NCBI GenBank assembly: GCA_000934665.2 | Contig: JYFJ02003401.1 | Coordinates: forward strand, 1 to 42,320 | Direction: 5' to 3' | Length of the DNA: 42,320 nt | From: Catajapyx aquilonaris | Taxonomy: Eukaryota | In this document: piece after piece, positions 3,379 to 40,636 of the stretch | Layout: the number at the start of each line of letters is the position of its first letter | Numbering within the stretch: position 1 is the stretch's first letter | Made by a program: the position numbers and the translations under genes | Notes under the pieces: model-generated | Told to the model about the DNA's origin: nothing | The model's input: the letters and a program-made list of their open reading frames with translations, nothing else | Database searches by the model: none

Positions 3379-4962
3379 TCATGTGCAATGGGGAATTCTT
3401 AGTAGCCCGCCATTGGGTCTTGCAGAAATTAGAAGGATGCTGCTGGCAGCCCGGAACTGACTGAGGCCCTCCGAGCTCAGGTCCAAATTGTGGCACATGT
3501 TGAGCTGAAGGTACCGGAGGTTGCGGCATCTCCTCACCAGGTCAAGGAGCGAATCGTTGGTGACCTGGTTGCTTCTCATCAAGCGTAATTGAGTCAGAAG
3601 AGGGCAGTTTGCAGCAATGGCCGATATGCAACCGTTGCTCAGCTCAGTGCAATTAATAAAGCTGATCTTCTCGAGGCCACCAACGATGTTCGGCTGGGAG
3701 AAAAACCGCTTCAGAGATTGTACCATTCTGCCTCTGCACGTCTCCAGGGTCAAACTACGGAGGTTGCGCAGTCTCCCTATCCCGTCATGCAGGCCAGTGT
3801 TGGTCAAGACGGAACAGCCTAGGATATTCAGCTCCTCCAGCTGCAGGAAGTTTGCAAGGAGAAGGAAGGATTCCCGGTTGCGGAAGGAAGAGACAGTGAA
3901 CTTCCTCAGCCGGCTTCCCACACTGCAGGCCAGCACTTCCACTTCCTGGCCAGCACCGTTCATGTAGAGCACCACCTCAGTCAGATTCGGCCAGTTTCTC
4001 TCGGTGAACTCACTCGATGGCGGAGGGAAATCTTCACTACACAGGGTCATCTTTTCCAGCTCTTGGCAGGAACTAAAAATGTCCAGGGGATGTTTCCAGT
4101 AATTCTTGTGACTGTCGAACTCCATCCACACATAGATTTCCCGCAGTTCCCTGCACCTGTGTTATGAAAATAAAATGATGAACTGCCAATAAATGACACT
4201 CTGCTACACCCAGCCTCCTTTACTTACTCTTGTGCAATCAGTTCCAGCGTATCCTGCGACACTGAGGCAGCCACAATTTTGAGACGCTTGAGGTGAAGAA
4301 TGCTATGGGCTACTGCTTCCAGCAGCGAATCACCATCCTCTCTATCCCAATGCCTCAATTGAATTGACTCCAGATAGGCCCTGTTGCTCGTGATCATAGC
4401 CACCGATTCCGCTGCAGTTAAATGGCGGCCATCCAAGGTCGCCTTCTTCCTAAGACCCAGCCACTCCTTGGTTATCCTGTTCCAATCTTGGCACACCAGT
4501 GCGAGACCCTTGTAGATGGACTTGTCCTCCAAGTACGAAAACACCTTTGCCTTCATTTCGTCGGGCAGGTCCGCAAAGGTCTTGACGCTAGCCTGCAATC
4601 GACAATAAATTGCGTATGTAAACACATTTAAAGTACCGACATAATTAGCACTCACCGTTGATTCTACTTGACAATGTTGCTGGTTGCTGCCACTACTCGT
4701 CTTGCCCGCACAAGTCGGCTTCTTGTCTCGTAACTTGGAATCGACCGCTGATTTTCCCTGCACCTCCGAGACACCCAAACCGACAGCAATCTGAAACAAA
4801 AATCGACGGGTCGCAACTGTTAGAAGCACATATAATCATGTAGTCATGCAAATTAATGCGTGAGTACCGACAGTACTGGTGGGGTCACCCCAACGCCATA
4901 CAGACGACACCAACACAGACAAATTTTATTGTATTCTTTACCCTTCTTCATTGTTGTTGTTG

Positions 4963-5018
<56 letters not shown>

Positions 5019-5154
5019 TTTATTAATTTATTATTACCATCCCCCTGCCCACGCCCAGCCTCTTTCTCTTCGTGGCCCTCGTCTCCACGGTGTTCCAACC
5101 CTTCTCCTCAGCCTCCCTCGCCATCCTCTGCCTCTCCATTCCTCGAGTCTCCAT
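3379..5154 (-). CDS. F-box/LRR protein copy 1; exons 5154-5038, 4790-4656, 4592-4228, 4156-3379
   Basis: F-box LPDEMKAKVFSYL...LALVCQDW plus cysteine-containing LRRs (CPLLTQLRL, CRNLRYLQLNMC). Splice sites are phase-consistent; the exon-1 donor is inferred (ATG|gtaata). Confidence 0.85.
4951..5036. repeat. (TTG)n(TTA)n microsatellite inside the ancestral exon 1 of copy 1
   Basis: Seen directly; absent from paralogous exon 1 sequences. Confidence 0.95.
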
Positions 5155-5264
5155 CGTTCTCCCCTCAACAGAACAAACGTGTCGCAACAATCAACCGAGG
5201 GTTCGAACCGAGGCAACAAAGAAAAGGAATTTCATCAGAGGGACCCGACGAAATTTCGACCGTT

Positions 5265-5548
5265 TCCATTGTGGGCGGCCATATTGGAATCCAAAACAAC
5301 CTGTTGCCAGATTTCGTTCGTCCTTTCGATAACTAACGGAATCATTTTAACCCGACCAATAGTGCAATCGTACAAGTAATTTAATATAATTGCACATTGC
5401 ATGAATTAACTGTTGCTCGATTACTTTATTAGCAAGAAGAATGTGGTTGGCTGCGTCCGGATTTCTGGTGACGCACCCACCGGTTGCGTCCGAATAAACA
5501 GAGGGAACGGACCAGAAACGACGGTAGGAATGCGCCCAAGATGGCGCT
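5265..5548. promoter_or_regulatory. Conserved promoter cassette (copy 1)
   Basis: ccattgtgggcggccatatt ... gctgcgtccggatt..gtgacg..ggttgcgtccgaat..ggaacggacc..cgacgg..ggaatgcgcccaagatggcg; recurs upstream of most array genes. Confidence 0.75.
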
Positions 5549-6007
5549 GACCTTCATCGATCCAGGAAATTATGTGGCGATAATTAATAATTTCTGGCCA
5601 TAATTTGACCTATTTTGCTAATTTGGCAGTCGAGACGCCCAGTTAATATTGGTCAGCATAATATGAGTTACAAAGGAGAAGTCTCGGTGTTTAGGGACGC
5701 ACAACATGAGCCTTTGCACTTGACCATTCGTTTTATCAGCTAGTTACACCGTGCTGTTACATGCTCATTACATCACTTTAATTTCATTTCCAAGGGTACA
5801 TCTTCAATGCAAGCTACATGCGCATAAGGCGTACAAAATATTGCTGGTCACATGTGGATTCAGATACCACAGCGTATTGCAGCGATTGTCAATAAATAAA
5901 TATGGCACTGCAAAGCCCACTCAATGTAATGCAATATATTACAAGTTTAACACTGAAAAATTGTATGTTGGGGGAAAGTACAACATAAGAAATTGAGGAG
6001 GGAATTA

Positions 6008-7761
6008 CTAGGAATCAATGGCAGGTGCGTATATTTTAAGAGTGCTTCTCACGGCCTGGAACTGACCAAGGGCCTCAGCGCTCCGGTCCAACTTGCGGCA
6101 AGCGAAGAACTGAAGGTTCCGAAGATTGCGGCATCTCCTCACCAGGTCTAGGAGCGCATTGTTGGTGACCTTGTTGGTTTCCACCAAGCACAAATGAGTC
6201 AGAAGAGGGCAGTTCATGGCAATGGCCGATATGCAACCGTTGTCAAGAGTTAAGCAATGATGGATGCTGAGCTTCTCAAGGCCACGGACCACGTTTGGCT
6301 GGGAAAAAAACCTCTTCAGAGCTTGTGCCATGCAGGGGTGGAACCTAACCAGGGTCAAGCTACGGAGGTTGCGCAGACTCCCCATCCCGTCTTGCAGGTC
6401 AGCTTCAGTTAGGAAGACACAGCCTGGGATATCCAGCTCCTCCAGCTGCGGGAAGCATGCGATGAGACGAAAGGACTCCGAATTAACCATGGAAGAAATC
6501 GCCAGTTTCCTCAGCCAGCCTCCCACACTGCGGGCGAGCACTTCCACTTCCCTGTCAGATCTGGCTCCGAAAAGCGTTACATCAGTGAGTTTTGGCCAGT
6601 TTCTCGCGGCGATCTCTTTCGATGGCGGCGGGAACTTCCGATCATGTATGGTCATCGTTTCTAACTCTTGACAGGAACTTAAAATGTCCAGGGGATTCTT
6701 CGAGTAATTCTGGTACAAGCTGAAGTTTCTCAGGTAGATGTACCGCAATTTGCTGCACCTGTGTTGTAATAATGAACATAAGTAAATAACACTTCGCACA
6801 CACTATGTCAACCCTCCTTCACTTACCTTTGTGCGATCAGTTCCAGCATATTCTGTGACAGGGAGGCATCAGCAATACTGAGACTCTCAATATGGGAAAG
6901 TCTCTCGGCTACTACTGTCAGCAGCAAATTAGCTTTCGCTTTATTCCAGTGCGTGAAGGTAGCTGCCTTCAGACGGGTCCTGTTCCTCCTTATCATAATT
7001 ATTGATTCCTCCAGAGTCAAATGCTGGCCATCCAATGTGATGTTCCTCCTGAGACCTAGCCACTCCGTGGCAACCCTGCGCCAATCTTTGCACACCAGTG
7101 CGAGGCTCTTACGAAGCAATTTGTCCTGCAGGTACGAGAACACCTCCGCCATCATTTCGTCAGGCAGGCTGGCAAAAGTCTTGCTGCTAGCCTGCAATTA
7201 TCAACAAAATGCCTCAGCAGGATACAGGGAGTTTCCGAATTCAGCCGATAAACTTGTAGGGGTCATAGCCAAGACCAAGAGTTATTAGCTCTTGGGCAGC
7301 CCTGTTACCAAGGTAATTAGCTTCATGTCATCCCCCCACTCACCGTCGCTTCTACTTGACAAGGTTGCTGGTCTCCACTCGTCTCAGCTGCACGAGTCAC
7401 GCGAGACTGCTTCTTGTCACGAATCATGGAATCGGCCACCGATTCTCCTGGTGTCACCTTGATCTCCGATACACCACCACCAACCTGAAACAAAATCAAA
7501 GGGTTGCAACTGTAAGAAGCAGTCATGCAAAAAATTAATTGCAATTATACAGTACTGGTGCGGTCACCCCAAAGCCATACAGATGACACCAACAATAATT
7601 TCCATTTTATTTTTCACCTCTTTCCATGGCTTCTCCTCTTCCAGCCCCCTGCACAACTCGACCCTCCTTCTCTTCGTGGCCCTCGTCTCCACGGTGTTCC
7701 AACCCTTCTCTTCGGCCTCCCTCAGCATCCCCACTCTCCTCATCCTTCTGGTCTCCATCAT
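6008..7761 (-). CDS. F-box/LRR protein copy 2; exons 7761-7618, 7484-7344, 7191-6827, 6758-6008
   Basis: Same four-exon plan; F-box LPDEMMAEVFSYL..LALVCKDW; open LRR exon. Confidence 0.9.
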
Positions 7762-9137: not shown

Positions 9138-10860
9138 CTAGGGTGCAACGGCAGGTGCATCAATTTGGAGCGTGCTTCTCACGGCCTGGAACTGACCAAG
9201 GGCCTCAGTGCTCAGGTCCAACCTGTGGCAAGAGAAGAGACCAAGGTTCCGGAGATTGCGGCATCTCCTCACCAGGTCTAGGAGCGCGTCGTTGGTGACC
9301 TCGTGGGTTTCCACCAAGCATAAATCAGTCAGGAGGGGGCAGTTCAAGGCAATGGCCGATATGCAACTGTTGTCAAGAGTTGGGCAATGACAGATGCTGA
9401 GCTTCTCAAGGCCACGGACCACGTTCGGCTTGGAAAAAAACCTCTTCAGAGCTTGCGCCATGCAGGACTGGAAGATAATCAGGGTCAAGCGGCGGAGGTG
9501 ACGCAGTCTCCCGATCCCGTCTTGCAGGCCAGCTTCAGTTAGGAAGAAACAGCATAGGATTTCCAGCTGCTCCAGCTGAGGGAAGCATGCAATGAGATGG
9601 AAGGACTCCGAATTAACCATGGAATAAATCGTGAGTTTCCTCAGCCAGCCTCCCACGCTCTGGGCGAGCACTTCCACTTCCCTGTCAGCGTTGGCTCCAA
9701 AAAGCTTTACATCAGTGAGTTTTGGCCAGTTTCTCGCGGTGATCTCTTTCGATGGTGGAGGGAATTGCCGATCATTTATGGTTATCGTTTCGAGTTCTTT
9801 ACAGGAACTTAAAATGTCCAGGGGATTCTTCGAGTAGTTCTGGTACAAGCAGAAGTTTCTCAGGGAGATGACCCGCAATTTGCCGCACCTGTGTTGTAAG
9901 AATGAATATTTAAGTAGATAACACTTAGCACACACTATATCGACCCTCCTTCACTTACCTTTGTGCAATCAGTTCCAGCATATTCTGTGACAGGGAGGCT
10001 TTGAAAACACTGAGACTCTCAATATGAGAAAGTCTCTCGGCTACTACTTTCAGCAGCAAATTAGCTTTCGCTTTATTCCAGTGCCTGAAGATCACCCCTT
10101 TCAGACGGGTCCTGTTCCTCCTTATCATGATTACTGATTCCTCCAGAGTCAAATGCTGGCCATCCAATGTGATGTTCCTCCTGACACCAAGCCACTCCGT
10201 GGCAACCCTGCGCCAGTCTTTGCACACCAGTGTGAGGCTCTTACGAAGCGATTTGTCCTGCAGGTACGAGAATACCTCCGCCATCATTTCGTCAGGCAGG
10301 CTGGCAAAAGTCTTGCTGCTAGCCTGCAATTATCAACAAAATGCCTAAGCAGGATACAGGGAGTTTCTGAATTCAGCCGACAAACTTGTAGGGGTAATAA
10401 CCAAGACCAAGAGTTATTAGCTCTTGGGCAGCCCTCATCCCCCCACTCACCGTCGCTTCTACTTGACAACGTTGCTGGTCTCCACTCGTCTCAGCTGCAC
10501 GAGTCACGCGAGACTGCTTCTTGTCACGAATCATGGAATCGGCCACCGATTTTCCTGGTGTCACCTTGATCTCCGAGACACCACCACCAACCTGAAACAA
10601 AATCAAAGGGTTGCAACTGTAAGAAGCAGTCATGCAAAAAATTAATTGCAATTGTTCTTTACACCCCAAAGCCATACATATGACACCAACAAGAATTTTG
10701 GATTTCATTTTTTCACCTCTTTCCATGGCTTCTCCTCGTCCATCCCCCTGCACAACTCGACCCTCCTTCTCTTCGTGGCCCTCGTCTCCACAGTGTTCCA
10801 ACCCTTCTCTTCGGCCTCCCTCAGCATCCCCAGTCTCCTCGTCCTTCTGGTCTCCATCAT
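9138..10860 (-). CDS. F-box/LRR protein copy 3 (recent duplicate of copy 2); exons 10860-10717, 10591-10451, 10323-9959, 9888-9138
   Basis: Introns and flanks nearly identical to copy 2; all exons open and phase-consistent. Confidence 0.9.
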
Positions 10861-11022
10861 CCCGCTTCTTCCTTCCAACCTCCCAATCCCACCCTCCTGT
10901 GGGTCCAGAGAGACCTTCCTCCTCCAACAATCAAGCCGCAACCCAACAAAGGCTGGCAACAATCAATCTAAATCCGAAAAAGAAAAAAGGATAAGCAAAA
11001 GTTACAAACGAAATTCCAACGT

Positions 11023-11814: not shown

Positions 11815-13996
11815 TTAGGATATGACGTTGTAACTGCGGGTGATACGCCCAACTCGTGGCTTGAAGCGGGGTTCTGCAGAAATTTGGAGGGTGCTGCTCG
11901 CTGCCTGGAACTGATCCAGGGCCTCTGCGCTCCTGTCCAGCTTGCGGCACCAGTTGAGCTCGAGGTACCGCAGGTTGTGGCATCTCCTCACCAGGTCAAG
12001 GAGCGAATCGTTGGTGACCTCTTGGCATTCCTCCAGTGAAAAGTGAGTCAGAAGAGGGCAGTTCGCAGAAATGGCCGATACACAATTGTCGTCCACTGTT
12101 GAGCAACCATACAAACGGAGCCTCTCAAGGCTACCCATGACATTTGGCTTAGAGAAAAAGCTCTGCAGACCTTGTGCGGTGCAACTTAGTGCAGTGCAGT
12201 AGTGGAACTTTACCAGGGTAAGGCTACGGAGGTTGTGCAGTCTCCCGATCCCATCGTGCAGCCCAGTGTCAGTCAAGTAGAAACAGGATCGGATTTTCAG
12301 CTCCTCCAGCTGCGGGAAGTGTGCGAGGAGAAGGAAGGACTCCCGGTTGATGAAGGAATCGATGCTGAGCTTCTTCAGCTGCCTCCCAAGAGTGCAGGCC
12401 AACAATTCTACTTCCCTGTCAGCAGCGAGAAATGATGCATCGACGAGTTTCGGCCAGTTTTCCCCAGTGCCCTGGGGTGATGGTGGAGGCAAACCTTGTC
12501 CATAAATGGTCATCTTTTCTAGCTCTTGGCAGGAACTCAAAATGTCTAGGGGATGCTTTGAGTAATGCTGACACCAGCGGAAGTTTCTTAGGTAGATTTC
12601 CTGCAGTTCGCTGCACCTGTGTCATAAAAATAAAAGTAATGACACTTAACGCACCATATCGACCTTCCTTTACTTACTCATGCGCAATCAGTTCCAGCAT
12701 GTTCTGTGACACTGAGGTATCCCAAACACAGAGACGCTTCAGGTGAGGAAGATTATTGGCTACTACTTTCAGCAGCGAATCAGCATCCTCTCCATTCCAG
12801 TCCATCAACGTAACCGACTTCAAATGGGTCCTGTAGCTCACGATCGCATGCACCGATTCCTCCAGAGTCAAACCCCGGTGGTCCAACTGCATGTTCTTCC
12901 TAAGACCCAGCCACTCCTTGGCCACATTGCACCAATCCTTGCACACCAGTGCGACTGTACAGAGCGATTTCACATCCAGGTACGAGAACACTTTTGCCTT
13001 CATCTCATCAGGCAGGCCGGCAAAGGTCTTGACGCTAGCCTGTAATTGTCAGCAAATTGGTTCAGTGTGTAGATATACAGGGTGATTAGTTAAACAACAA
13101 AAAAGTTTGATCACCCTGTATACGTATATATGAACAATCACCATTTTTAAGTACAGGTATTGAGTACGTTGCTAAACTCAGCGGCTGTCAGGCTCGCTGA
13201 TAGGTCAATCTTCACTGAGGGCCGTTTTCTCGAACAGTGGTTCAAATGTAAACCCGGTTCAAAGCCGGTTTAAACCCTTGACAACAGCCTAACAACAATC
13301 AAATCAGGGATTAAACTGGCTTTGAACCCGGTTTACATTTGAACCACTGTTCGAGAAAACGGCCCTGAATTCAACAACGTTTTCGCTGCCTAGTTCTGCT
13401 ATTCCAAGATGGCCACCATTTGCCGGCGCCCTACGCGAAAGCCGCTTCGCCTAGCAACCCGTGTTGAATGAACCAACAACGATGCGCTCAACCGCTTCCG
13501 TCGCTGTGGCAGCGGCCGAGTTTAGCAACGTACTCATTGCGAGTCTCAGCAGTCCAGTAACCTGAAATAATTAGCTTCTTGTGATCCCACACTCACCGTT
13601 GTATCTACTTCACAATGCGGTTTGCTGCCTCCACTGGACTGGGCGGCGGGAGTCACACGAGCCCGCTTCTTGTCATGACCCTTGGAATAGGCCATTGCTT
13701 TTCCTGGCGTCTTCACCTGCACCTCGGACACACCCAACCCGCCAGCAATCTGAAACAAAATCAAAGTGTAACAAATGCAGCCATGTAAAATAGTAACAAT
13801 GGTTCCGGGCAAAAGTAGTTGTGCGGTCACTCAAAGGCCATACAGATGACATATTATTTTTCACCTTTTTCCATGGCTTCCCCTGACCCCGGAACAACTC
13901 GACCCTCTTCCTCTTCATGGCCCTCGTCTCCACCGTGTTCCAGCTCTTCTCCTCAGCCTCCCTCAGCCTCCTCATCCTCCTTGTCTCAATCATCAT
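11815..13996 (-). CDS. F-box/LRR protein copy 4; exons 13996-13865, 13749-13597, 13039-12678, 12616-11815
   Basis: F-box LPDEMKAKVFSYL..VALVCKDW; LRR exon open; intron 2 enlarged by MITEs. Confidence 0.9.
13078..13118. mobile_element. 41-bp Tc1/mariner-type mini element
   Basis: TA|cagggtgat ... atcaccctg|TA. Confidence 0.7.
13162..13535. mobile_element. MITE with 3-bp TSD (ATT), PIF/Harbinger-like
   Basis: TIRs gagtacgttgctaaactc / gagtttagcaacgtactc; ATT on both sides; empty site ggtattgtgagtctc in the paralogous intron at ~16575. Confidence 0.9.
13219..13365. mobile_element. Nested Harbinger-type MITE
   Basis: Long TIRs gggccgttttctcgaacagtggttcaaatgtaaac / gtttacatttgaaccactgttcgagaaaacggccc; TSD TGA. 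Confidence 0.9.
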
Positions 13997-21411: not shown

Positions 21412-21417
21412 CTGATG

Positions 21418-28472: not shown

Positions 28473-28667
28473 GGCTTGAATATCCTGTTATGTGGACACC
28501 CCCCTTTCCTTTTATCCCCACGCTTCCCTCCAACCTGTCCTCGGTGCTCCTCCTGGACTCCCTGAATCCAATGGACGGAATGGTACCCGTTTCCCACGAA
28601 AATGTGTCGCCTAAACGCTCTTCAAGTCATCTCAAACCTGACCATCAAAAAAAATGTGCGAAAAGTC

Positions 28668-28971
28668 CCATTGTCGGCGGCCATCTTTGATTAATCTTCC
28701 ACACCGTTGCCAGATTGCGCCAATTCGAACTAACGGGACAGTAACGGACAGAGTAAAAAGCAGATCAAACACGTTGTGTAATACAACAGCATTTGCTGTG
28801 TACATTACATTAATTAATTGCTCGTTAGATTAGCACTATAATAATAATTATTGAAGAATGTTGCGTCCGGATTTTTTGAGTGACTTGTCCCGTGGTTGCA
28901 TCCGAATATGAGCAGAAGGAACGGACCGGAAGCGGCGGTCGGAACGCACCCAAGATGGCCGCCGACAATGG
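28668..28971. promoter_or_regulatory. Promoter cassette upstream of the C14orf93-like gene, with a perfect 20-bp terminal inverted repeat
   Basis: ccattgtcggcggccatctt (28668-28687) and aagatggccgccgacaatgg (28952-28971) flank the same core as in the F-box copies. Confidence 0.8.
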
Positions 28972-29220: not shown

Positions 29221-30262
29221 TTACGGATATGTGGAAATTTGCAGGGTGCTGCTTGCCGCCTGCAACTCACCCAGGGCCTCAGCTGACTGGTCCAGGTTGT
29301 CGCACCAGAAGAGCTTCAGCTGCTGGAGGTTGCGGCATCTCCTCACCAGGTCTAGGAGCGGGCCGTTGGTGACCTCATTACATCTCCACAAACAGAAGTG
29401 AGTCAGGAGAGGGCAGTTGGCAGAAATGGCCGATATGCAACCATTGTCCAGAGTTGAGCAATAAGAGAGGTCGAGCTTCTCAAGGCTACCCACAATGTTC
29501 GGAATGGAGAAAAACCTCTGCAACCTTGTGCAGTGCAGGTGTCACACCTAACCAGGGTCAAGCTACGGAGGTTGCGCAGTCTCCCGATCTCATCTTGCTT
29601 CTACTTGACAATCTTGTTTGCTGCCTCCCTTCGTTTCGGCTGCACAAGCCAAGCAGGATTCCTCCTCGTCACGAATCACTGAATCGGCCGCTGATTTTCC
29701 CGGCGTCTTGTCCAGCACCTCCGAGGCACCCAACCCACCAGCAATCTGAAACAAAATGAGTGTAAAAGATGGTCGCACATGTAATCATGCGGTCGTGTAA
29801 AAATGAATGCGACAGTTCCGTGCATAATGATAGGCTGATGGTCAGCACCGGTGCAGTCACTCCAAAGCCATGCAGATGACACCAACAAGAATATCCTTTC
29901 TTTTTTTCACCTTTCTCCTTGGCTTCTCCTCCAGTTCCATGCACAACTCAACCCTCTTCCTCTTCATGGCCCTCGTCTCCACAGTGTTCTGACCCTTCTC
30001 CTCGGAAGAAACCAACCGCTGGCCCCCGAGAGTGCGGGCCAACACTTCTACTGGCCTGTGGGTGTTGCCTACGAGAAACAACAACTCGGGGAGCCTTGGC
30101 CAGTTTCTCCCAGTGACCTCGTTCGATGGCGGGGGGAACGCAACCTCAGATCATTAATGCTGGTTATCTTTTCCAAGTTCTTGGCAGGAACTCAAAATTT
30201 CCAAGGGATGCTTTAAGTAATTGTAGTACCAGTTGAACCTTTTCCCGCAGTCTTCTGTACCT
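29221..30262 (-). pseudogene. Scrambled F-box/LRR pseudogene(s)
   Basis: Minus-strand order: exon-4 start (30260-30010), exon-1 end (~30005-29911), intron, exon 2 (29745-29591) fused directly to the last LRRs (29590-29221). Exon 3 and the F-box are missing. Confidence 0.85.
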
Positions 30263-30638: not shown

Positions 30639-32406
30639 TTACCAAAACATGGAATACCAGCCAGTGATGGGAAATAGAGAAATTCGGAGCTTGTCACTGG
30701 CCGCCTGCAACTGACGCAGGGCCACCGCTCTCCCGTCCACCCTGCCGCACCAGTTGAGCTCAAGGTGCTGGAGGTTGTGGCACCTCCTCACCAGGTCTAG
30801 GAGCGAGGCGTTGCGGACCTTTTGGTTTCTCACCAAGCAGAAATGAGTCAGGAGAGGGCAGTTCATGGCAATGGCTGAGATGCAACCATTGTCCAGGGTT
30901 TGGCAATAAGAAAGGCTGAGCTTCTCCAGGCGGCCAACTATGTTTGGCTTGGAGAAAAAGCTCTTCAGAGGTTGTGCCATGCACCAGCGAAACTTTGCCA
31001 GGGTCAGGCTACGGAGGTTGTGCAGTCTTCCGATCCCATCCTGAAGGTGAGTGTCAGTCAAGATGGTACAGTCTTGGATATTCAGCTCCTCCAGCAGTGG
31101 GAAGCGTGCGAGGAGAAGGAAGGACTCCGGGTTGACGAAGCAATTAAACTTCAGCTTACTCAGCCGGCCCCCCACACTGCAGGCCAAAACTTCTACTTCC
31201 TTGTCAGCATTGTCCATGAGAAGCGACACGCTGGTGAGATTCGGCCAATTTTGCCCAGTGAACTCGCTTGATGGCGGAGGGAAACTTCCAGCACCTATGG
31301 TTATCTCTTCTAGCTCCTGGCAGGAACTCAAAATGTCCAAGGGATGCTTTGAATAAACGTCTTTCCAGTTGAACATACTCAGGCAGATGCTCCTCAGTGC
31401 ACTGCACCTGGGTCGTAAAAATAGAAGTAAGGAACTGGCCATAAACGACACTTAACTTGCCTCCTTTACTTACTCCTGTGCGATCAGTTCCAGCATATTC
31501 TGCGCCACATTGGTATCCTGAACACTGAGATGCTTCAGGTGAGGAAGCTTCTCCGCTACTACCTCCAGCAGCGAATCAACCTTCACTCTCTTCCAGTCCA
31601 TAAGAGTAAGTGACTCCAGATGGGTCATGTTGTCCACGATCACCTGCACTGATTCCTCCAGAGTCAGAAGGTGGGCATCCAAGACCATCTTCTTCCTGAG
31701 ACCCATCCACTCCTTGGCCACCCTGCACCAATCTTTGCATACCAGTGTGAGGGTCATATGGATGGTTTTATCATCCAGGTACGAGAACACCTTTGCCTTC
31801 ATCTCATCGGGCAGGCTGACAAATGTCTTGAAGCTATCCTGCAATTGTCAGGAAAATGCTTAAGTATGTAAACAAGTAATGATCACTTTAAGTGCCGGTA
31901 ATGTGAGTCTCTGCAGCCCAGTCACTAGATAATTAGCTTCATGTCATCCCGCACTCACCGTCGCTTCTACTTGACAATCTTGTTTGCCGTCTCCCTTCGT
32001 CTCGGCTGCATAAGCCAAGGAGGATTCCTTCTCGTCACGAATCATGGAATCGGCCGCTGATTGTCCTGGTGTCTTGGCCTCCACCTCCGAGGCACCCAAC
32101 CCACCAGCAATCTGAAACAAAATTAGTGTAAAAGATGGTCGCACATGTAATCATGCGGTCCCGTAAAAATTAATGTGGCAGTTCCATGCAAAATTATTGG
32201 CTGATGGTCACCACTGGTGCGGTCACCCAAAAGCCATGCAGATGACACAAACTAAAACTTTGATTTAATTTCACCTTTCCCCGTGGCTCCTCTTTTTCTT
32301 CCTCCACCCCCCTGCCCATGTCCACCCTCCTTCTCTTCATGCCCCTCGTCTCCACAGTCTTCCTTCCCTTCTCCTCGGCCTCCCTCGGCGTCCTTCTAGT
32401 CTCCAT
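30639..32406 (-). CDS. F-box/LRR protein copy 9; exons 32406-32275, 32111-31959, 31838-31474, 31407-30639
   Basis: All exons open and phase-consistent; F-box LPDEMKAKVFSYL..LTLVCKDW. Confidence 0.9.
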
Positions 32407-32783: not shown

Positions 32784-33299
32784 AACACATAACAGTTGCG
32801 GTTTTCGAGCTTTAATTGACTTTATTTACAATTATTTGTTGCCCATTATTGTTGCAAATGATCCCAACAGAGAGGTTACATGAGGGAGACACGTACCTGG
32901 CATTCAGATACCTTATGGCAGTGATTGTGAATTAAATAAATAAGGCACCGCAATCCCAAAAGTATTGCAACACTAGCTACTAACTATATGCTGGAAAACA
33001 TGCAAAATAATAAATTAATACTGGCCATGAAAACAATGCAACTGTTTCAAAGGCAACTTTCGTAGCAACTTAGCCGGTACAAACTTGACTGTTGAGACAG
33101 TTTACATTCATTGGTAATGACACTCTTGGTAATGATCATTGATTAACCGCGAATTGCATTTGAATCGTTTCCAAACATTAAAAATAAAAAAATCCCGTTC
33201 ATGTCAGGGATGTTGCGATCCACTTTAACTAGTGGAGCATCTGCACAACATTCGTTCACCTTTGATGAAGCTTGCACTTGTCTGTTCATGGATAGGAAT

Positions 33300-33632
33300 T
33301 GCAGCTCTTTCAGTTGCAGAAAGCTTTGCCAGGAGAAGGAAGGAATCTGGTTTACGGATGAAACCAACTGCAAGTTTCCTCAGCTGGCCCCCCTTAGAGT
33401 GGGGGCCAACAACTTCTACTGGCCTGTCGGTGTTGCCTACGAGAAGCAACACCTCAGTGAGCCTCGGCCTGTTTCTCCCAGTGACCTCGTTCCATTAGCG
33501 GAGGGAACCTAAGGTCATTTACGGTTATCTTTTCTAGTTCTTGGGAGGAACAAAAAATTACCAAGGGACGCTTTGAGTAATTGTCGTACCAGTTGAACCT
33601 TTTCATGTAGATTTCCTGCAGTTTTCTGTACC
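33300..33632 (-). pseudogene. LRR exon-4 5' fragment, paralogous to 30010-30260
   Basis: DRPVEVV..QLRKLAVGFIRKPDSFLLLA with frameshifts; flank 33640-33810 matches 30270-30440. Confidence 0.8.
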
Positions 33633-33999
33633 TGTGTCATAAAAAGGTGACAAGTTGGGATCACGTTCTCAGACACTGGGTAATTGTTGGGTGAACAATT
33701 ATCGGCTGGTTACGTAGAGAGCAGGCTTGTTAGGGGGAAGGATACAACTGTCCATTATTGTTGTCAATTTAATTTCAATTCCATGTGTACATAGTGCAGC
33801 CAAATGTGCATAGGTGTACAGTGTTGGACGTAAACCGAGGCATGCTCCTAGCGACATTTTCCGAAGCAGCAGAAGAAGGAATCGAAGATAAGGATAGTGC
33901 AAGCCGAGCGAGCAAGATTCCTTCTTCTGCCGTTTCGGAAAATGCCGATAGCAGCATCCAGCGATTTGTCCAACTCTGTACATAGTGCAGCCAAATGTA

Positions 34000-34195: not shown

Positions 34196-36537
34196 TACAT
34201 CGGCATGAAAATTATGGCTATGGTCTAAGGTTATAGCAGGGGAACGCAGGCTCAAAATTTTTCGGGATGCATAAACTGTTTCCTGCAGCAGCCGGTGGCC
34301 AGACCGGGAACCTCCCACAAACCACCCCCTCAGGAGGGCTACGTCACCGCGTGCAATCACTCCGGTAGCATGCGCGCAGGCTTCTACCAGCATAGAGGTC
34401 CAGGCGGCCAACTTTGTTTGGCTTGGAGAACAAGCTCCTCAGAGGTTGTAACATGCACCAGCGAAACTTTGCCAGGGTCAGGCTACGGAGGTTGTGCAGT
34501 CTTCCGATCCCATTCTGAAGGTGAGTGTCAGTCAAGATGGTACAGTCTTGGATATTCAGCTCCTCCAGCAGTGGGAAGCGTGCGAGGAGAAGGAAGGACT
34601 TCGGGTTGACGAAGCAATTAAACGTCAGCTTACTCAGCCGCCTCCCCACGCTGCGGGCCAAAACTTCTACTTCCTTGTCAGCATTGTCCATGAGAAGCGA
34701 CACGCTGGTGAGATTCGGCCAGTTTTGCCTAGTGAACTTGCTTGATGGCGGAGGGAAACTTCCAACACCTATGGTTATCTCTTCTAGCTCCTGGCAGGAA
34801 CTCAAAATGTCCAAGGGATGCTTTGAGTAAACGTCTTTCCAGTTGAACATACTCAGGCAGATGCTCCTCAGTGCACTGCACCTGTGTCGTAAAAATAAAA
34901 GTAATGAACTGGCCATAAGTGACACTTAACTTGCCTCCTTTACTTACTCCTGTACGATCAGTTCCAGCATATTCTGTGCCACATTGGTATCCTGAACACT
35001 GAGACGCTTCAGGTGAGGAAGCTTCTCCGCTACTACCTCCAGCAGCGAATCAACCTTCGCTCTCTGCCAGTCCGTCAGAGTAAGTGACTCCAGATGGGTC
35101 ATGTTGTCCACGATCACCTGCACTGATTCCTCCAGAGTCAGAAGGTGGGCATCCAAGACCATCTTCTTCCTGAGACCCAGCCACTCCTTGGCCACCCTGG
35201 ACCAATCTTGGCAAACCAGTGTGGTCATATGGATGGTTTCCTCCTCCAGGTACGAGAACACCTTTGCCTTCATCTCATCGGGCAGGTTGGCAAATGTCTT
35301 GGCGCTAGCCTGCAATTGTCAAGAAAATGCTCAAGTATGCAAACAAGTATTGCATAAGCCCTGATCATTTTAAGTACATGTGTCGTGCGTCTCTGCTGCC
35401 CAATTACCGAGATAATTAGCTCATCGTCATCCTGCACTCACTGTTGCTTCTCCTTTACAATGTTGGCTGCTATCTCCATTCGCCTTGGCTGCAAGCGACA
35501 CACAAAACTGCTTCTCGTCACTGATCTTGGCATCGGCCACTGATTTTCCCGCCATCTGCGCCTGCACCCCCGAGACACCCATGCCACCAGCAATCTGAAA
35601 CAAAATGAAACCGTAACAAACCAAACTCAGGATTGCATCTGCACATACACAAAACAAGTGACAACAAAGGACCACTTTATCATGTATTAATTTAAATTAA
35701 CCCATAGTTTAAGCAATTATTACTTTTTCTCATTGAAAAAAAGGCTCATGGAACGGCCCTGTCCATCTGTGTGTGGACAGGTATCAGGGCCTGAACAGCA
35801 TAAGATAGCGACAAACATTTTTTGGATTCAGCTGACCCTAAATTAGGTTTCATGGACAACATCCTGTGCCCGGCCACATCCGATTTTACTGAGCCCACTC
35901 CATCCACCAAGGTCAAGTCTACATGCTTTAGGCCAGTATCTTCGACGTCTCATGCAAACCTTGCGACGGCCCCGGGTCCGCCCTAGCTAGCTCATACCAA
36001 GCAAACTCGGGGTTCCTGGAGCACTGGTTTTTATTGACCTTCTGGGTCCCAAGCTGCTTGAGTACAGACTGGCCCTTGTTAGGTCTCCCCTCCATCGGAG
36101 CCCCCGCAAGCGGCTATCAGCGATTATGTCACCCTGGAATCAACTGACCTGGCATGGCAGAGAGGAATCTTATGGCCTCGCTCTGGACATTTGACCCCAG
36201 GCATGGGTGGCACTTTAAGTTAACCGCCCCCGCCTACGTGGCCAAATCCGGCGTACAGCCCATTGACACCTTGCCTGCCCACCTTGCGGTCCTCAAAACC
36301 AGGACAACGACGCTGCCGAATTGGCACGCCAAAATAAACCTCGGCTGCTCCATCAACCGACACCACGTCTTGAACCCCAGTAGTAGTTAATTTTGTTACT
36401 TAAAAATGTGATACTCTCCCTGGCAGAACCCTGTCAACTCCCTTCTGCGAGCGCCTCCCGCAGGTTTGCGAGAGATGAAGATTACGGCCTTAGAGGTTGC
36501 TGGGCAACGAGAAATGAGGCTGACAACACTCTACGTC

Positions 36538-36597
<60 letters not shown>

Positions 36598-36935
36598 GAT
36601 ACCCCGTGATAGGCCTCCATGGTCCTCTTAGGGCATCATCTTTTAAATACCCAAACTTTAATAATTTCCTGCGCTGTGATGGATTTTGATGGCGGGGGAA
36701 ACGAGAGAACCCCGAGAAAACCCACGTGAACACGGAGAGAACCCATCGAAACTCTATCCACAGAAGTATCCTCCGTCTGACCCAGGGATCGAACTCGGGA
36801 CCTCAGAGGTGGAAGGCAAATCACATGCAAGCGTGATTCGAGTAGACCTTTCCTCGTTGCCAAGGAAATTCAAATTATTGGACAACTATGACAGAGTGAG
36901 GGCGGCATGGTGGCAGAGTGGTTAGCGCCGCAGCT
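36538..36935 (-). mobile_element. tRNA-derived SINE (V/Meta-SINE-like central domain) with (ATT)n tail and rearranged head
   Basis: Minus strand: B box gagttcgatccc, central cgtgggttttctcggggttctctcgtttccccc, (att)~19 tail. The A-box head appears inverted at 36900-36935. Confidence 0.8.
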
Positions 36936-37027
36936 AACCACTCCGCCCTGTCATAGTTGTCCAATAATTTGAATTCCCTTGGCAACGAGGAAAGGTCTAC
37001 TTGAATCACGCTTGCGTGTGATTTGCC
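36815..37027. repeat. 80-bp inverted repeat with an inner hairpin
   Basis: 36815-36894 is the near-perfect reverse complement of 36948-37027. Confidence 0.92.
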
Positions 37028-37777
37028 AATCTATAGCATTAAAGTGCTTGCGGTGTGTGCGTATAAGCCATCTGATTGGGCCACCGCATATTGTTACCGC
37101 CACCTCCCCATTGGCCCGCCATCGTGTGCCACGGGGGTGTAAACAACTCCTGGGTCGCCGGCGATACTGTCCATTCCTTTCTCTGTATTGTTGCCCGGTC
37201 GGCACTACTGTGAAGTTGCGAATAGTGTCGTTGGTCTCAGCGGGTCGTGCAGATACAGGAAGTAATGTTCAGAGACCTTTTAATGTAAATTTGGTATTTT
37301 TATTTTTTCAAATTAATTTTTGATTAATTTTCACCTTTCTCCATGGCTTCTCCTCTTCCTCCTTCACCCCCCTGCAGCTGCCCATGCCCTCCTCCTTCAT
37401 CCTCTTCGTGGTGGCCCGTGTCTCATCCACAGTGTTCCAACCCTCCTCCTCCTCCTCCTGGGCTTCTCTCTTCATCTTTCCAGTCTCCATCATCATCCAG
37501 TGCTGTCCTCCAAACAATCAAAGCCGCAACCGAATTGTACGGGGCTCCCCGAAAGAATAAAAAAATTAAAAATCAAGATAAATATTTTCGGCGTGGCGTC
37601 CCTTCCCGAAATTCCCGAACAACATGTTGCCAGGTTCACTATTTCGAACGGACGTAAACCAGACATGTTATTTTTAATACGAATGTATTTTTTTCTACTT
37701 TTACATATTATAATATTAGCCCGTTGCTCATTTTTTACATCATTAGTAAAATTATTATTTAAAAATAAGAATGCTCT

Positions 37778-37870
37778 CGGCTGCGTCCGGATTTGGAGTG
37801 ACGTCCCTGGTTGCGTCCGAATAGAAGTAACAGAAGGAACGGACTGGGAGCGACGGCCGGAACGCACCCA
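37778..37870. promoter_or_regulatory. Promoter cassette core (copy 10)
   Basis: gctgcgtccggatttggagtgacgt..gttgcgtccgaat..ggaacggactgg..ggaacgcaccc; both YY1-like arms degenerate. Confidence 0.65.
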
Positions 37871-38040
37871 CGTACATCGATAAGTGATTATCGAGCTGTA
37901 ATCGACTTTAATTATCAATTTACTGCTCATTATTGCCGCGAATTATCGCAGGAGAGGTTACATGAGGCAGTGACGCGCCTGTCAGATACCTCATGCGAGT
38001 GATTGTGAATAAATAAAACAATGAGGCTCACTCTCTTTAA

Positions 38041-38167
38041 CCCTGTAATGTCCACTGGGTCATATCTGGCACACACCTTAGTGCAATTTTTGCCATTTTT
38101 ATATTTCCTGTAAGTGCCAAATTGCTCTAAATGGTGTGCCAGATATGACCCAAGGGGCATTACAGGG
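38041..38167. mobile_element. piggyBac-type MITE
   Basis: TTAA|ccctgtaatg.cc..tgggtcatatctggcacac ... gtgtgccagatatgaccca..gg.cattacaggg|TCAA. Confidence 0.8.
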
Positions 38168-38909
38168 TCAAGTATTTATTGCAATTAAGAAGTTCAACCC
38201 AACAACAAACTGCATGTTGATAAATACACAGCATCATGTGTAATACTGGCCATGAAAACAATGTAACTTTATCGTTCAAAGGCAACATTTTAGTAACAAC
38301 TTTCAACAGTAACATAATCTCGTTCTTACATTATCCATCATTATTGGTAATGAACTAACGATCCTTCCTTAAATGCAAACTGTTATCGGCCAGCTACTTG
38401 TGCTCATTGCTTGATGGAAAAACTCTCTTGCTGTTTGCACCAGCTTCATTTCAATTTAATACATGGTTCGGCATACAAGTACTTTGCATGGATTCAGATA
38501 CACCTTTTATCACATGATTGTCAATAAATAAGACACCGCAATCCCACTCAAAATACTGGGTTCGCAATATTGAACACAACAAACGGTATGTGGGGAAAAC
38601 AGGGCTACAACATAATAAAATAATACTGGCAATGACAACGATGTAACCGATTGGTTTAAAAGCAACATTAGGAACAACTTTCAACAGGAACTTCATCTCA
38701 ATTGTTGAGCACTTTACATCCTTGCTGGTAATGATCTTTGCTTAAAAACAACCTGGTCACATTTTAATCACTTTCAATCACTTTAAAAAAAATCCCCGTT
38801 CATGCCAGGCACGTTCGATCCCCGTTAACCAGTGGAGGATCTGCACAATTGTTAATTTGTCCACCTTGATGAAGCTCGCACTTGACTGTTGATGCGCAGC
38901 AGGGAAATC

Positions 38910-40636
38910 CTATGAAATGACGTAGACGTGATCGATGCGTGGCTCGAAGGAGGGAAATGCGAAGATTTGAAGAGTGCTGCTGGCAGCCTGCAACTTATCG
39001 AGGGCCTCCGCACTCCGGTCCAGGTGCCAGCACCAGATGAGCTCAAGGCGCTGGAGTTTGCGGCATCTCCTCACCAGCTTCAAGAGCGAGGCATTGGTGA
39101 CCCCATGGGTGTGCACCAAGCGGAAACGAGTCAGAAGAGGGCACTTCGCAGCAATGGCTGATATGCAACTGTCGTCAAGAGCTGAGCAATATGAAAGGCT
39201 GAGCATCTTGAGGCTACCCACAACAAGTGGCTGGTAGAAAAACCTCCCCAAATCCCATGCACAGCAGGTGACATTTTCCAGGGTCAAGCTACGAAGGTTG
39301 CGCAGTCTCCCAATCCCACCGCGCAGTTCCCTTTCTGTCAAGGAGTAACAGGTTTGGAGTTTCAGCTCCTCCAACTGAGGGAAGCATGCGAGGAGAAGGA
39401 AGGACTCTGGCATGTTAAAGGAATGGATGTGGAGCTTCCTCAGCTGGCTCCCCAGGCTGCGGGCAAGCACCTCCACTTCCCTGTCAGCACCGTTTATGAC
39501 AAGCGACACGTCTGTGAGTTTCGGACAGTTTATCCCAGTGGCCCAACTCAATAATCTATGAGGCATTTGGCCAGCTATGGTTATTTTCTCCAGTTCCCGA
39601 AACGAATTCAAAATGTCCAGGGGATGCCTGTAGTGCCAGTTCCAGCTTCTCAGGCGGAAGTCCCGGAGTTTGCTGCACCTGCATTGTAAGAACAAAATGA
39701 TGAACTGTGACACTCGATGCCCTATTTCCACCAAAACTTTTTTACTTACTTTTGTGCAATCCGTTCCAGCATATTCTGTGACACCGCAGTATCATAAATA
39801 ATGAGACACTCGAGAAGAGGAAGATTCTCAGCTACTACTTGCAGCAGGGAATCAGCATTTGTTTCATTCCAGTTCTTCAAGGCAACTGACTCCAGATGGG
39901 ACATGTTGCTCGTGATCATCTGCACAGATTCTTCCAGAGTCAAACGCTGGCTGTTCAAGGTCAGCTTCTTCCTAAGACCCAGCAACTCCCTGGCCACCCT
40001 GCACCAATCCTTGCAAACCAGTACGACACTCGTACGAAGGGTATTCTCCTCCAGGTATGAGAACACCTTTGCCTTCATCTCGTCTGGCAGGTTGGAAAAG
40101 GTCGTGACTTTAGCCTGTAATTGTCAAGATATTGCTTAAGTATGTACACAAGTAATGATCATATTAAGTACAGGTACTGTGTGTCTCTGGAGCACAGTAA
40201 CCGAGATAACTAGCTCATTGTCAACCCACACTCACCTTCGCTTCTGCTTGACAATGTTGGTTGCAGCCTCCCGCAATCTTGGCCTCACAAGTCACAAGGG
40301 TCTGCTTCTCATCATCATGAATCTTGGAATCGGCCCCTGATTGTCCCAGTGTCTTTGTCTGCACCTCCGAGACATCCAACCCACCAGCAATCTTAAACAA
40401 AATAAAAGAGTTGTAACTGTAAGAAACACATGCAATCATGCAATCATGTAAAAATTAACACGATAGTTCCAGGCGAAAGATTGACTGACGGTCAGGACTG
40501 GTGCGGTCACCTAAAAGCCATACAGATGACACCTACACAGGCGTCTACACAAATATTTATTGTATTTTTCACCTTTCTCCTGGGCTTCTCCAGAACCTCA
40601 TTCTCTTCGTGGCCCTTGTTTCAACAGTGTTCCAAC
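38910..40636 (-). pseudogene. F-box/LRR copy 11, 5'-truncated; exons 40391-40236, 40114-39750, 39678-38910 open; exon-1 remnant 40636-40573
   Basis: Exons 2-4 intact. Exon 1 lacks its METR start, ends in phase 2 relative to WNTVETRATKR, and no promoter cassette lies upstream. Confidence 0.7.

What the first reader, a model, noticed from the sequence alone, without database searches (positions are those of the whole stretch)
3379..40636. Birth-and-death tandem array of ~11-12 F-box/LRR genes
Seen: co-oriented ~3-kb units with a shared exon plan and every stage of decay (intact, frameshifted, exon-deleted, truncated, scrambled). Established: F-box/LRR proteins are SCF substrate adaptors, and large rapidly turning-over F-box families in nematodes and plants are linked to pathogen or genetic conflict. 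Inference: a lineage-specific recognition family that I cannot assign to a conserved FBXL orthologue.
Basis: partly seen in the sequence, partly recalled or inferred. Interest (0 to 1): 0.7.

Follow-up and report, generated by a model that had tools for sequence, protein, structure and literature searches.

The report
Expressed tandem F-box/LRR gene array
A row of about a dozen copies of a lineage-restricted gene for a probable ubiquitin-ligase target receptor, six of them intact and several transcribed, varies most on the predicted target-binding side of the protein; this is a familiar kind of fast-evolving gene family whose targets are unknown.

Summary
On the minus strand between 3379 and 40636 lie nine gene units with an F-box exon and an LRR exon, plus four fragments.

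- **Gene plan:** four exons, not two: a conserved basic leader, a loose linker exon, F-box plus three LRRs, and ten more LRRs.
- **State of copies:** six are intact (416-481 aa). Three are open but damaged. Frameshifts occur only in fragments.
- **Not artefacts:** copies are 52-88% identical in protein, with dS 0.08-0.69.
- **Expression:** contigs of one public run join eight of my predicted introns exactly, in four different copies.
- **Family:** all nine F-box exons pass Pfam. The LRR model (pLDDT 90) matches SKP2, FBXL17 and FBXL2, but there is no orthologue. Only two unnamed proteins of about 390 aa, at about 31% identity, share the layout.
- **Selection:** omega is 0.71 overall. At the a-priori exposed xxLxLxx sites it is 1.2-1.3, clearly above the rest (0.69) but not significantly above 1.

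My reading is a birth-and-death family of SCF substrate receptors that diversifies on its binding face. Skp1 binding, the targets and any link to conflict are untested.

The scan has noted F-box/LRR arrays before in fungi, giant viruses and Naegleria, but not this family.

The parts
3379..5154 (-). u1: intact 4-exon gene, 464 aa (exons 5154-5038, 4790-4656, 4592-4228, 4156-3379)
   Evidence: Model and translation. Introns 2 and 3 are joined exactly in a 1130-nt contig with 0 differences.
6008..7761 (-). u2: intact 4-exon gene, 466 aa (7761-7618, 7484-7344, 7191-6827, 6758-6008)
   Evidence: Introns 2 and 3 are joined in contigs. Recent sister of u3 (dS 0.16).
9138..10860 (-). u3: intact 4-exon gene, 466 aa (10860-10717, 10591-10451, 10323-9959, 9888-9138); the reference copy
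   Evidence: all three introns are GT..AG. Intron 3 is joined in a contig. The AlphaFold models are of its exon 4 and exon 3.
11815..13993 (-). u4: intact 4-exon gene, 481 aa (13993-13865, 13749-13597, 13039-12678, 12616-11815)
   Evidence: Introns 1, 2 and 3 are joined in contigs.
15381..16880 (-). u5: open 3-exon reading, 420 aa (16880-16677, 16515-16154, 16077-15381). Exon 1 is lengthened by an internal duplication. Intron 1 and most of exon 2 are deleted. The stop comes about 25 codons early and two conserved Cys are lost. Probably decaying.
   Evidence: The predicted exon 3/4 joint is not among the joints shown.
18304..19717 (-). u6: intact 3-exon gene, 416 aa (19717-19577, 19494-19133, 19051-18304). 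Exon 2 is absent and the frame is kept.
   Evidence: Contigs cover the body (depth bins), but no joint is listed.
21417..21744 (-). Fragment: 3' half of exon 3, intron 3 and the start of exon 4, inside the 9-kb spacer
   Evidence: 69-79% nucleotide identity to the same part of nine units. Weak TBLASTN hit.
28662..28969 (-). Solo copy of the unit's conserved 5' flank, with no gene body behind it
   Evidence: matches the 5' flanks of u3, u5, u6, u8 and others. A perfect 20-nt inverted repeat lies at its ends.
29236..30006 (-). u7b: remnant. Exon 1 (30006-29926) and exon 2 (29742-29596) are joined directly to the last third of exon 4 (29597-29236) with a frame change. Exon 3 and most of exon 4 are deleted.
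30022..30249 (-). u7a: remnant, first third of exon 4 only
30639..32406 (-). u8: intact 4-exon gene, 472 aa (32406-32275, 32111-31959, 31838-31474, 31407-30639)
   Evidence: Lies outside the stretch on which reads were laid.
33297..33636 (-). u9: remnant, first part of exon 4 with a frameshift
   Evidence: two HSPs in different frames.
34344..37493 (-). u10: damaged young sister of u8 (37493-37335, 35594-35442, 35309-34948, 34881-34344; 403 aa open). Homology in exon 4 ends at 34399, so the last three LRRs are lost. Intron 1 is swollen to 1.7 kb.
   Evidence: dS 0.08 and omega 0.89 against u8.
38910..40636 (-). u11: edge copy. Exons 2-4 are open (40391-40236, 40114-39750, 39678-38910; 429 aa). 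Exon 1 is cut at its 5' end, out of frame and without a start codon (about 40636-40573).

Best explanation
This is a tandem, birth-and-death array of a lineage-restricted gene family of the F-box/LRR (FBXL) class.

SHOWN: Each intact gene has four exons, or three where exon 2 is lost, and encodes four parts in order. First comes a short conserved basic leader (its core holds a K-R-R-R run). Then comes a poorly constrained linker. Then comes an F-box. Last comes a 13-repeat LRR solenoid.

INFERRED from the family: the F-box docks on Skp1 of an SCF (Skp1-Cullin1-Rbx1) ubiquitin ligase. The concave face and adjoining loop of the LRR arc bind the protein to be ubiquitinated.

SHOWN: Local unequal crossing-over keeps making new copies. 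The sister pairs u2/u3, u5/u6 and u8/u10 are neighbours, although u8 and u10 are separated by the u9 fragment. Deletions, insertions and truncations remove other copies. The scaffold and F-box are kept by purifying selection. The exposed strand and loop positions change at or above the neutral rate.

INFERRED: the array therefore holds receptors of differing specificity. The basic leader may be a nuclear-localisation signal.
For: - **Architecture.** Pfam F-box-like (PF12937) matched at E <= 0.001 in 9 of 9 exon-3 translations; 37.2 bits against a cut-off of 24.3 in u3.
- **Sequence match to solved structures.** The exon-4 profile hits FBXL2 (4.5e-21) and FBXL17 (about 1e-15) in the PDB. With two outside relatives added, the values are 1.2e-28 and 3.3e-21.
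- **Fold.** The AlphaFold model of u3 exon 4 has pLDDT 90.3 and pTM 0.90, with regular strand-helix repeats. The top 14 Foldseek PDB rows are all F-box/LRR subunits of SCF ligases. SKP2 8byl_B has TMq 0.73 and rmsd 3.0; FBXL17 6w66_B has 0.69; FBXL2 6o60_C has the best E, 7.6e-8.
- **Real, spliced genes.** All introns of u3 are GT..AG. 8 of the 15 joints shown for run X1 fall exactly on my predicted introns of u1, u2, u3 and u4. One 1130-nt contig carries u1 exons 2-4 with 0 differences. Depth is near zero in the promoter and spacer bins.
- **Selection on the frame.** Six ORFs of 416-481 codons stay open although pairwise dS among these six copies is 0.42-0.59 apart from u2/u3 (0.16). In a substitution-only simulation, 0 of 5000 ORFs stayed open at 0.25 changes per site.
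- **Constrained parts.** Omega is 0.43-0.44 for the F-box. pN/pS is 0.44 for exon 1.
- **Exposed sites.** The a-priori xxLxLxx sites (65 codons) have omega 1.18-1.31 against 0.685-0.705 for the rest of the LRR. 2dlnL is 10.96 against the omega of the rest. 24 of 5000 random codon sets reach the observed pN/pS, and 0 of 5000 reach its pN.
- **Periodicity.** pN/pS is 0.20-0.58 at core positions p1, p4, p6 and p9, and 1.10-1.61 at p5, p7, p8 and p10. The modelled strands span p3-p7.
Against: - Skp1 binding was not tested, and no Skp1 sequence was available to me.
- The F-box part of the exon-3 model is of low confidence (block pLDDT 51-67).
- Omega above 1 is not significant for the a-priori site class (2dlnL 0.93 and 1.80).
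- The significant value (omega 2.1-2.2 at p5, p7 and p8; 2dlnL 9.7-10.9) is for a subset I chose after seeing the variability.
- Overall omega is high (0.71), and even the non-exposed LRR sites sit at 0.65-0.70. General relaxation of constraint therefore explains much of the divergence.
- Gene conversion between copies was not examined.
- The library kind of run X1 is not on record.
- Only 3 of 13 repeats in u3 keep the Cys that names the CC-type LRR (column p9).
- No substrate, tissue or condition is known.
Confidence: 0.7

Rival explanations
1. A relaxed, mostly redundant family. The genes are real, but the high rate at exposed LRR positions only reflects lack of constraint on surface residues after duplication. 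It is not selection for new specificities. The array is drifting toward loss, with no repertoire function.
For: Overall omega is 0.71, and omega is 0.65-0.70 even outside the exposed sites. The a-priori site class is not significantly above 1 (2dlnL 0.93 and 1.80). 3 of 9 full units are damaged and there are four more fragments. u8/u10 have omega 0.89.
Against: Six ORFs are open at divergences where 0 of 5000 neutral simulations stay open. The conservation is strictly periodic at core positions. The post-hoc class p5, p7, p8 has omega 2.1-2.2. The F-box and leader are constrained.
Confidence: 0.22
2. The proteins act outside SCF ligases. They could be F-box-bearing LRR scaffolds or Skp1-titrating regulators, possibly in the nucleus, and the F-box is kept for a role other than substrate ubiquitination.
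For: The conserved N-terminal basic leader is absent from the two outside relatives. The F-box part is modelled with low confidence.
Against: The F-box is the most constrained part of the protein (omega 0.43-0.44) and passes Pfam in 9 of 9 copies. All top structural matches are SCF receptors.
Confidence: 0.06
3. The copies are assembly or haplotype artefacts.
For: None beyond the repetitive layout. 87 of 206 laid contigs are only 90-95% alike, which shows that further similar sequences exist somewhere.
Against: The copies differ by 12-48% in protein, with dS 0.08-0.69. u2 and u3, the closest pair in the laid stretch, each have their own spliced joints. Structural differences (exon loss, truncation) are copy-specific.
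Confidence: 0.01

Closest known systems
Solved FBXL-class SCF receptors: SKP2 (8byl_B, 1fqv_A), FBXL17 (6w66_B, 8uah_B), FBXL2 (6o60_C)
   Same: An F-box is followed directly by an LRR arc. They give the best profile hits and the best fold matches. The F-box stretch, with its L-P start and V-C-K-x-W motif, aligns with FBXL17.
   Different: Only 13-18% identity in the structural alignments. Sequence matches cover single stretches of 53-123 residues, not the whole length. Most repeats lack the CC-type cysteine. There is an extra conserved basic leader and a linker exon. No orthology can be claimed.
P0009 (386 aa) and P0110 (397 aa), unnamed proteins from public assemblies
   Same: Collinear over the F-box, the linker LRRs and the whole of exon 4. 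They share landmarks and are 30-33% identical to the window's exon-4 translations.
   Different: They lack the leader and linker exons. Their organism and genomic context are unknown, because the look-up of cluster members was switched off. They are too distant to be orthologues of any single copy.
Expanded, fast-evolving F-box families of Caenorhabditis and of plants
   Same: Many lineage-specific copies, frequent pseudogenes, and fast change in the substrate-binding part. PMC8120010, PMC8665587 and PMC3719486 were seen only as search listings with the start of the abstract. Thomas 2006 on adaptive evolution of ubiquitin-ligase adapters is recalled, not seen.
   Different: The nematode families mostly carry other C-terminal domains (recalled). 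Here the binding domain is an FBXL-type LRR, the host is an animal that earlier notes call an arthropod, and only one array is in view. Positive selection is not established.
Other ubiquitin-adaptor arrays noted by this scan: an SPOP-like MATH-BTB array in the same genome (e1-7506695), and F-box/LRR arrays in fungi, giant viruses and Naegleria (e1-7588581, e1-7573709, e1-610574)
   Same: Tandem arrays of ubiquitin-ligase adaptors with variable binding parts. These are AI notes that I did not check.
   Different: They are different protein families and organisms. No sequence look-alike of this family was found in the scan's index.

Membership tests
F-box proteins (Pfam PF12937 / PF00646) | An F-box motif of about 40-50 residues scoring above the curated cut-off | tested here: met
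   9 of 9 exon-3 translations match PF12937 and PF00646 at E <= 0.001. u3 scores 37.2 bits (cut-off 24.3) and 27.2 bits (cut-off 20.5).
F-box proteins (functional definition) | Binds Skp1 and assembles into an SCF ligase | not testable with these tools
   No Skp1 sequence of this organism was available, so no complex job was sent. The F-box part of the model has low confidence. The F-box has the lowest omega of the partitions fitted (0.43-0.44).
FBXL class (F-box followed by an LRR domain) | An LRR solenoid directly C-terminal to the F-box | tested here: met
   The models show 3 strand-helix repeats in exon 3 and 10 in exon 4 (pLDDT 90.3). The top 14 Foldseek rows are F-box/LRR proteins. PDB profile hits are FBXL2 and FBXL17.
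CC-type (cysteine-containing) LRR of FBXL proteins | Repeats of about 26 residues with Cys at the position after the strand (LxxLxLxxC) | tested here: inconclusive
   Repeat length is 23-29 residues. In u3 only 3 of 13 repeats have Cys at p9 (p9 column). The Pfam LRR_6 and LRR_FBXL15-type models stay below their cut-offs.
A named conserved FBXL orthologue group (FBXL2/20, FBXL17, SKP2, FBXL16 and others) | A full-length collinear match with clearly higher similarity to one group than to the others | tested here: not met
   There are no named close relatives. The named hits cover 15-33% of the query (Chlorokybus F-box protein, FBXL16 of a bee and of Varroa, a Phytophthora protein). PDB hits are partial stretches. 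Identity in fold alignments is 13-18%. A tree with FBXL1-22 was not built, because those sequences could not be fetched here.
Diversifying F-box adaptor repertoires (nematode and plant type) | A tandem, lineage-specific expansion with pseudogenes | tested here: met
   Nine units plus four fragments on one strand. No close relatives were found. The genome-wide count was not possible.
Diversifying F-box adaptor repertoires (nematode and plant type) | Positive selection (omega above 1) in the substrate-binding domain | tested here: inconclusive
   The a-priori exposed sites have omega 1.18-1.31, not significantly above 1 but above the rest (2dlnL 10.96; 24 of 5000 permutations). The post-hoc subset has omega 2.1-2.2.

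The most novel reading that the evidence does not exclude
The array is an arthropod counterpart of the proposed nematode 'intracellular surveillance' F-box repertoires. On this reading it is a set of nuclear SCF receptors, sent to the nucleus by the conserved basic leader. Their diversifying LRR faces would track fast-changing foreign or selfish proteins (viral, transposon, symbiont or meiotic-drive products) and mark them for degradation, with copy turnover driven by that conflict.
Probability: 0.13. Interest if true: 0.75.

Novelty: new member of a known kind. Interest (0 to 1): 0.4.

Why it matters
Large, fast-turning F-box families are textbook for nematodes and plants. The start of one abstract I saw states that they are far smaller in insects and vertebrates (PMC8120010, listing only). 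Here is an expressed, locally expanding FBXL-type family in an animal that earlier scan notes call an arthropod. Its exposed LRR positions change at about the neutral rate or faster, while the scaffold is conserved. That makes it a concrete, testable candidate for a diversified set of ubiquitin-ligase receptors. Six intact paralogues with defined variable positions could go straight into Skp1 and substrate pull-downs. If nothing special binds them, the array remains a clean example of birth-and-death evolution that shows every stage of decay within 37 kb.

Tried and rejected
- **Own genome.** None is held, so no family count was possible.
- **Protein searches.** Word-indexed searches with the LRR exon found nothing at E <= 0.001, for 'longer' and for 'near' lengths. 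The profile search gave only generic LRR hits besides P0009.
- **Exhaustive profile search.** It returned 10,280 proteins at E <= 0.001. I inspected 5 of the 150 listed, and only P0009 and P0110 share the layout.
- **Atlas.** It gave only generic F-box/LRR clusters for P0009 and for u3 exon 4.
- **Metagenome scan.** 222 pattern matches, none a relative.
- **RNA runs.** No RNA holder is listed. The single holder, X1, is of unrecorded kind.
- **Contig joints.** 7 of the 15 joints shown have non-canonical ends or extra letters and link different copies. I read them as assembly chimeras between paralogues, not as trans- or cassette splicing. 
- **Other annotation.** Pfam on 14 ORFs of the flanks and spacers gave 0 families. 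Rfam gave 0 matches and the tRNA scan gave 0 genes.
- **Core-Leu partition.** The iqtree run returned omega 1.000 and kappa 1.000, which I take as an unfitted default and ignore.
- **Scan index.** No look-alike was found for the LRR exon or for exon 1 with its flank.
- **Literature.** Three searches found no paper on an arthropod or crustacean FBXL array: F-box / lineage-specific expansion / tandem / crustacean; ubiquitin-ligase adapters / adaptive evolution / F-box / nematodes; FBXL / expansion / arthropod / tandem. This covers only the held library.
- **Rejected readings.** A two-exon gene plan. A protocadherin-like arrangement of shared exons. A transposon or viral origin, since the genes have ordinary GT..AG introns, their own promoters and UTRs, and no TE domain.

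Full report
**What is there**

The window is eukaryotic DNA (GC 41-50%). Between 3379 and 40636 it carries a repeated gene unit on the minus strand.
- BLASTN of one unit against the window gave 27 of 27 HSPs in the same orientation.
- TBLASTN with the spliced unit-3 protein gave 34 of 34 HSPs in minus frames.
- Nine units (u1-u6, u8, u10, u11) carry both the F-box exon and the LRR exon.
- There are four further fragments (21417-21744, 29236-30006, 30022-30249, 33297-33636) and a solo 5' flank (28662-28969).
- Stop-to-stop spacing in u1-u6 is 2.6-3.6 kb.
- A spacer of about 9 kb (19.8-29.2 kb) without recognisable domains splits the array.

**Gene plan**

Reading unit 3 and translating by coordinates gives four coding exons with GT..AG introns.
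- Exon 1: 144 nt, phase 0.
- Exon 2: 141 nt, phase 0-0.
- Exon 3: 365 nt. It holds the F-box plus three LRRs and ends in phase 2.
- Exon 4: 751 nt. It holds ten more LRRs and the stop.
- Total: 466 aa.

The homologous boundaries exist in the other units.

**Transcript evidence**

One public run (coded X1, kind not on record, kept as 85,611 contigs, 32 million letters) holds half of the sampled words of 3301-13300.
- Laid on 3001-23000, 8 of the 15 joints shown coincide exactly with my predicted introns: u1 introns 2 and 3, u2 introns 2 and 3, u3 intron 3, and u4 introns 1, 2 and 3. All eight have CT..AC ends on the plus strand, which is GT..AG on the minus strand.
- A 1130-nt contig carries u1 exons 2-4 with 0 differences.
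- Depth is about 0-0.9 in the bins that lie upstream of units (5002-5668, 7670-8336, 17008-17674) or in the spacer (19676-21009). The bin 16341-17007, which holds u5 exon 1, is also low at 0.68. Depth is 2.5-75 over the remaining gene-body and 3'-flank bins of u1-u6.
- I take this as spliced RNA of at least four copies. The library kind is unrecorded, so this is strong but not formal proof.
- The other 7 joints have non-canonical ends or inserted letters and link different copies. I read them as assembly chimeras.

**State of the copies**

| Copy | State |
|---|---|
| u1, u2, u3, u4, u8 | Intact, 464, 466, 466, 481 and 472 aa |
| u6 | Intact, 416 aa; exon 2 cleanly lost, frame kept |
| u5 | 420 aa open; exon 1 internally duplicated; only the tail of exon 2 is left; stop about 25 codons early; two conserved Cys lost |
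| u10 | 403 aa open; homology in exon 4 ends at 34399; intron 1 is 1.7 kb |
| u11 | Exons 2-4 open; exon 1 cut, out of frame and without a start codon |

Frameshifts occur only in the fragments u7b and u9.

**Not artefacts**

Over exons 3 and 4 the nine copies are 52-88% identical in protein. dS is 0.08 for u8/u10, 0.16 for u2/u3, 0.28 for u5/u6 and 0.40-0.69 for the other pairs. The sister pairs u2/u3 and u5/u6 are adjacent, and u8/u10 are neighbours separated only by the u9 fragment, as local tandem duplication predicts. The whole unit is duplicated, including a conserved 5' flank and 3' flank.

**Family**

- Pfam F-box-like and F-box match 9 of 9 exon-3 translations.
- A profile of exon 4 hits FBXL2 (4.5e-21), FBXL17 (about 1e-15), plant MAX2, RAD7, FBXL5 and SKP2 in the PDB, always through partial stretches (similar).
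- The exon-3 profile is closest to FBXL17 (1e-5), with the F-box aligned.
- AlphaFold gives a confident LRR arc for exon 4 (pLDDT 90.3, pTM 0.90). For exon 3 the model has pLDDT 74.5, with the three LRRs good and the F-box poor.
- The top 14 Foldseek rows are all F-box/LRR subunits of SCF ligases. SKP2 has TMq 0.73 and FBXL17 has 0.69, at 13-18% identity.
- No orthologue emerges. Two word-indexed searches found nothing.
- The exhaustive profile search found thousands of repeat-level LRR hits. Among the five I inspected, only two proteins have the same layout: P0009 and P0110, at 30-33% identity.
- The third word-indexed search returned P0009 (from a 1356-nt contig, unnamed) and named hits covering only 15-33% of the query.
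- The metagenome scan and the atlas added nothing specific.
- Earlier scan notes call this genome an arthropod with springtail-like or insect relatives. I did not test that.

**Selection**

- Whole-region omega is 0.71 (GY+F3X4; 6 intact or 8 open copies, with u10 left out of both sets and u5 and u11 left out of the first; 371 codon columns).
- The frames are nevertheless maintained. In a substitution-only simulation, 0 of 5000 copies of the 466-codon ORF stayed open at 0.25 changes per site, and 6 of 5000 (0.12%) at 0.15.
- The F-box (47 codons) has omega 0.43-0.44. Exon 1 has pN/pS 0.44. Exon 2 has 0.80.
- I fixed the LRR register from the LxxLxL pattern. The models later confirmed that the strands span p3-p7.
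- The classical exposed 'xxLxLxx' x-sites (65 codons in 13 repeats) have omega 1.18 (8 copies) and 1.31 (6 copies).
  - This is not above 1 (2dlnL 0.93 and 1.80).
  - It is above the rest of the LRR (0.685; 2dlnL 10.96).
  - 24 of 5000 random sets of 65 codons reach the observed pN/pS, and 0 of 5000 reach its pN.
- By position, pN/pS is 0.20, 0.58, 0.54 and 0.48 at core p1, p4, p6 and p9. It is 1.10, 1.12, 1.51 and 1.61 at p5, p7, p8 and p10.
- Sliding the register shows that the fast zone runs from the strand into the following loop, while the helix side stays at 0.5-0.7.
- The subset p5, p7, p8 has omega 2.1-2.2 (2dlnL 9.7-10.9). I chose it after seeing the pattern, so it is only suggestive.
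- Gene conversion was not screened.

**Mechanism**

- Shown: expressed genes encode an F-box plus a 13-repeat LRR arc. The scaffold, F-box and leader are conserved. The strand and loop positions are fast. Copies are made and lost locally.
- Inferred from the FBXL family: the F-box docks on Skp1 of SCF, the variable face binds substrates, and the copies therefore differ in targets.
- Speculative: the K-R-R-R leader is a nuclear signal, and the targets are fast-evolving foreign or selfish proteins.

**Comparison and novelty**

The array works like an FBXL receptor family and evolves like the expanded F-box families of nematodes and plants. I saw those papers only as search listings. It is not a member of any named FBXL orthologue group. 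My three literature searches found no report of such an array in arthropods. The scan itself has noted F-box/LRR arrays in fungi, giant viruses and Naegleria, and an SPOP-like array in this same genome. I rate it a new member of a known kind, of moderate interest.

**Limits**

There was no genome-wide count, no FBXL tree, no Skp1 test and no tissue or infection data. One run of unrecorded kind is the only expression evidence.

Noticed in passing
window 5275-5286, 7937-7948, 11033-11044, 14172-14183, 28677-28688, 32504-32515 (minus); 14443-14454, 17278-17289, 20050-20061, 28951-28962 (plus): A 12-base word (CAAGATGGCNGC, up to 1 mismatch) recurs in the 5' flank of the units, about 100-190 nt upstream of the start codon, often with an inverted partner about 240-270 nt further upstream. 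There are 12 matches against 0.97 expected, though the copies are not independent. In the solo flank the two arms are a perfect 20-nt inverted repeat, 28668-28687 / 28952-28971. It resembles the YY1/Pho-type core word (recalled, not tested). It could be a promoter element or the ends of a small inverted-repeat element carried with each unit.
   Followed up: partly
window 40850-41026, minus strand: Just upstream of the decapitated edge copy u11 lies an ORF with a start codon at 41026 and a possible GT donor after 40850 (177 nt, phase 0). It encodes a Gly/Ser/Pro-rich peptide. It would splice in frame onto u11 exon 2, so it may be a replacement first exon or the first exon of a neighbouring gene. 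No reads were laid here.
   Followed up: no
window 3001-23000 (run X1): 87 of 206 laid contigs are only 90-95% alike and 58 are 95-99% alike. Most copies in the window are below about 80% identical in DNA, so these contigs point to further close paralogues elsewhere in the genome or to divergent alleles.
   Followed up: no
window 35600-37330: Intron 1 of u10 is swollen to 1.7 kb. It holds a perfect (ATA)n run of about 20 copies at 36538-36596 and a 213-nt palindromic stretch at 36815-37027, 80% self-complementary. This is probably an inserted element. Pfam found no domain on two ORFs within it.
   Followed up: partly
window 21758-21932 and 25689-25787: The spacer holds a 101-nt repeat pair at 92% identity. 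At 21758 and 21809 there are 9-10 contigs with loose ends and high depth. This suggests a dispersed, transcribed repeat whose consensus has a tRNA-like GGGGATCGAAC stretch. ARAGORN found no tRNA.
   Followed up: no
window 871-1203 and 42107-42320: There are two minisatellites outside the array: an 18-nt unit with 18.4 copies, and a 33-nt unit with 6.5 copies that runs off the window end and is open in several frames.
   Followed up: no
window 16600-16900 and 19480-19740: The sister copies u5 and u6 have both lost exon 2, but differently. u5 keeps the last ~35-40 nt of exon 2 fused behind the exon 1 donor and has a 20-codon internal duplication in exon 1. u6 has a clean 82-nt intron from exon 1 to exon 3. 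The loss keeps the frame because exon 2 is phase 0-0.
   Followed up: partly
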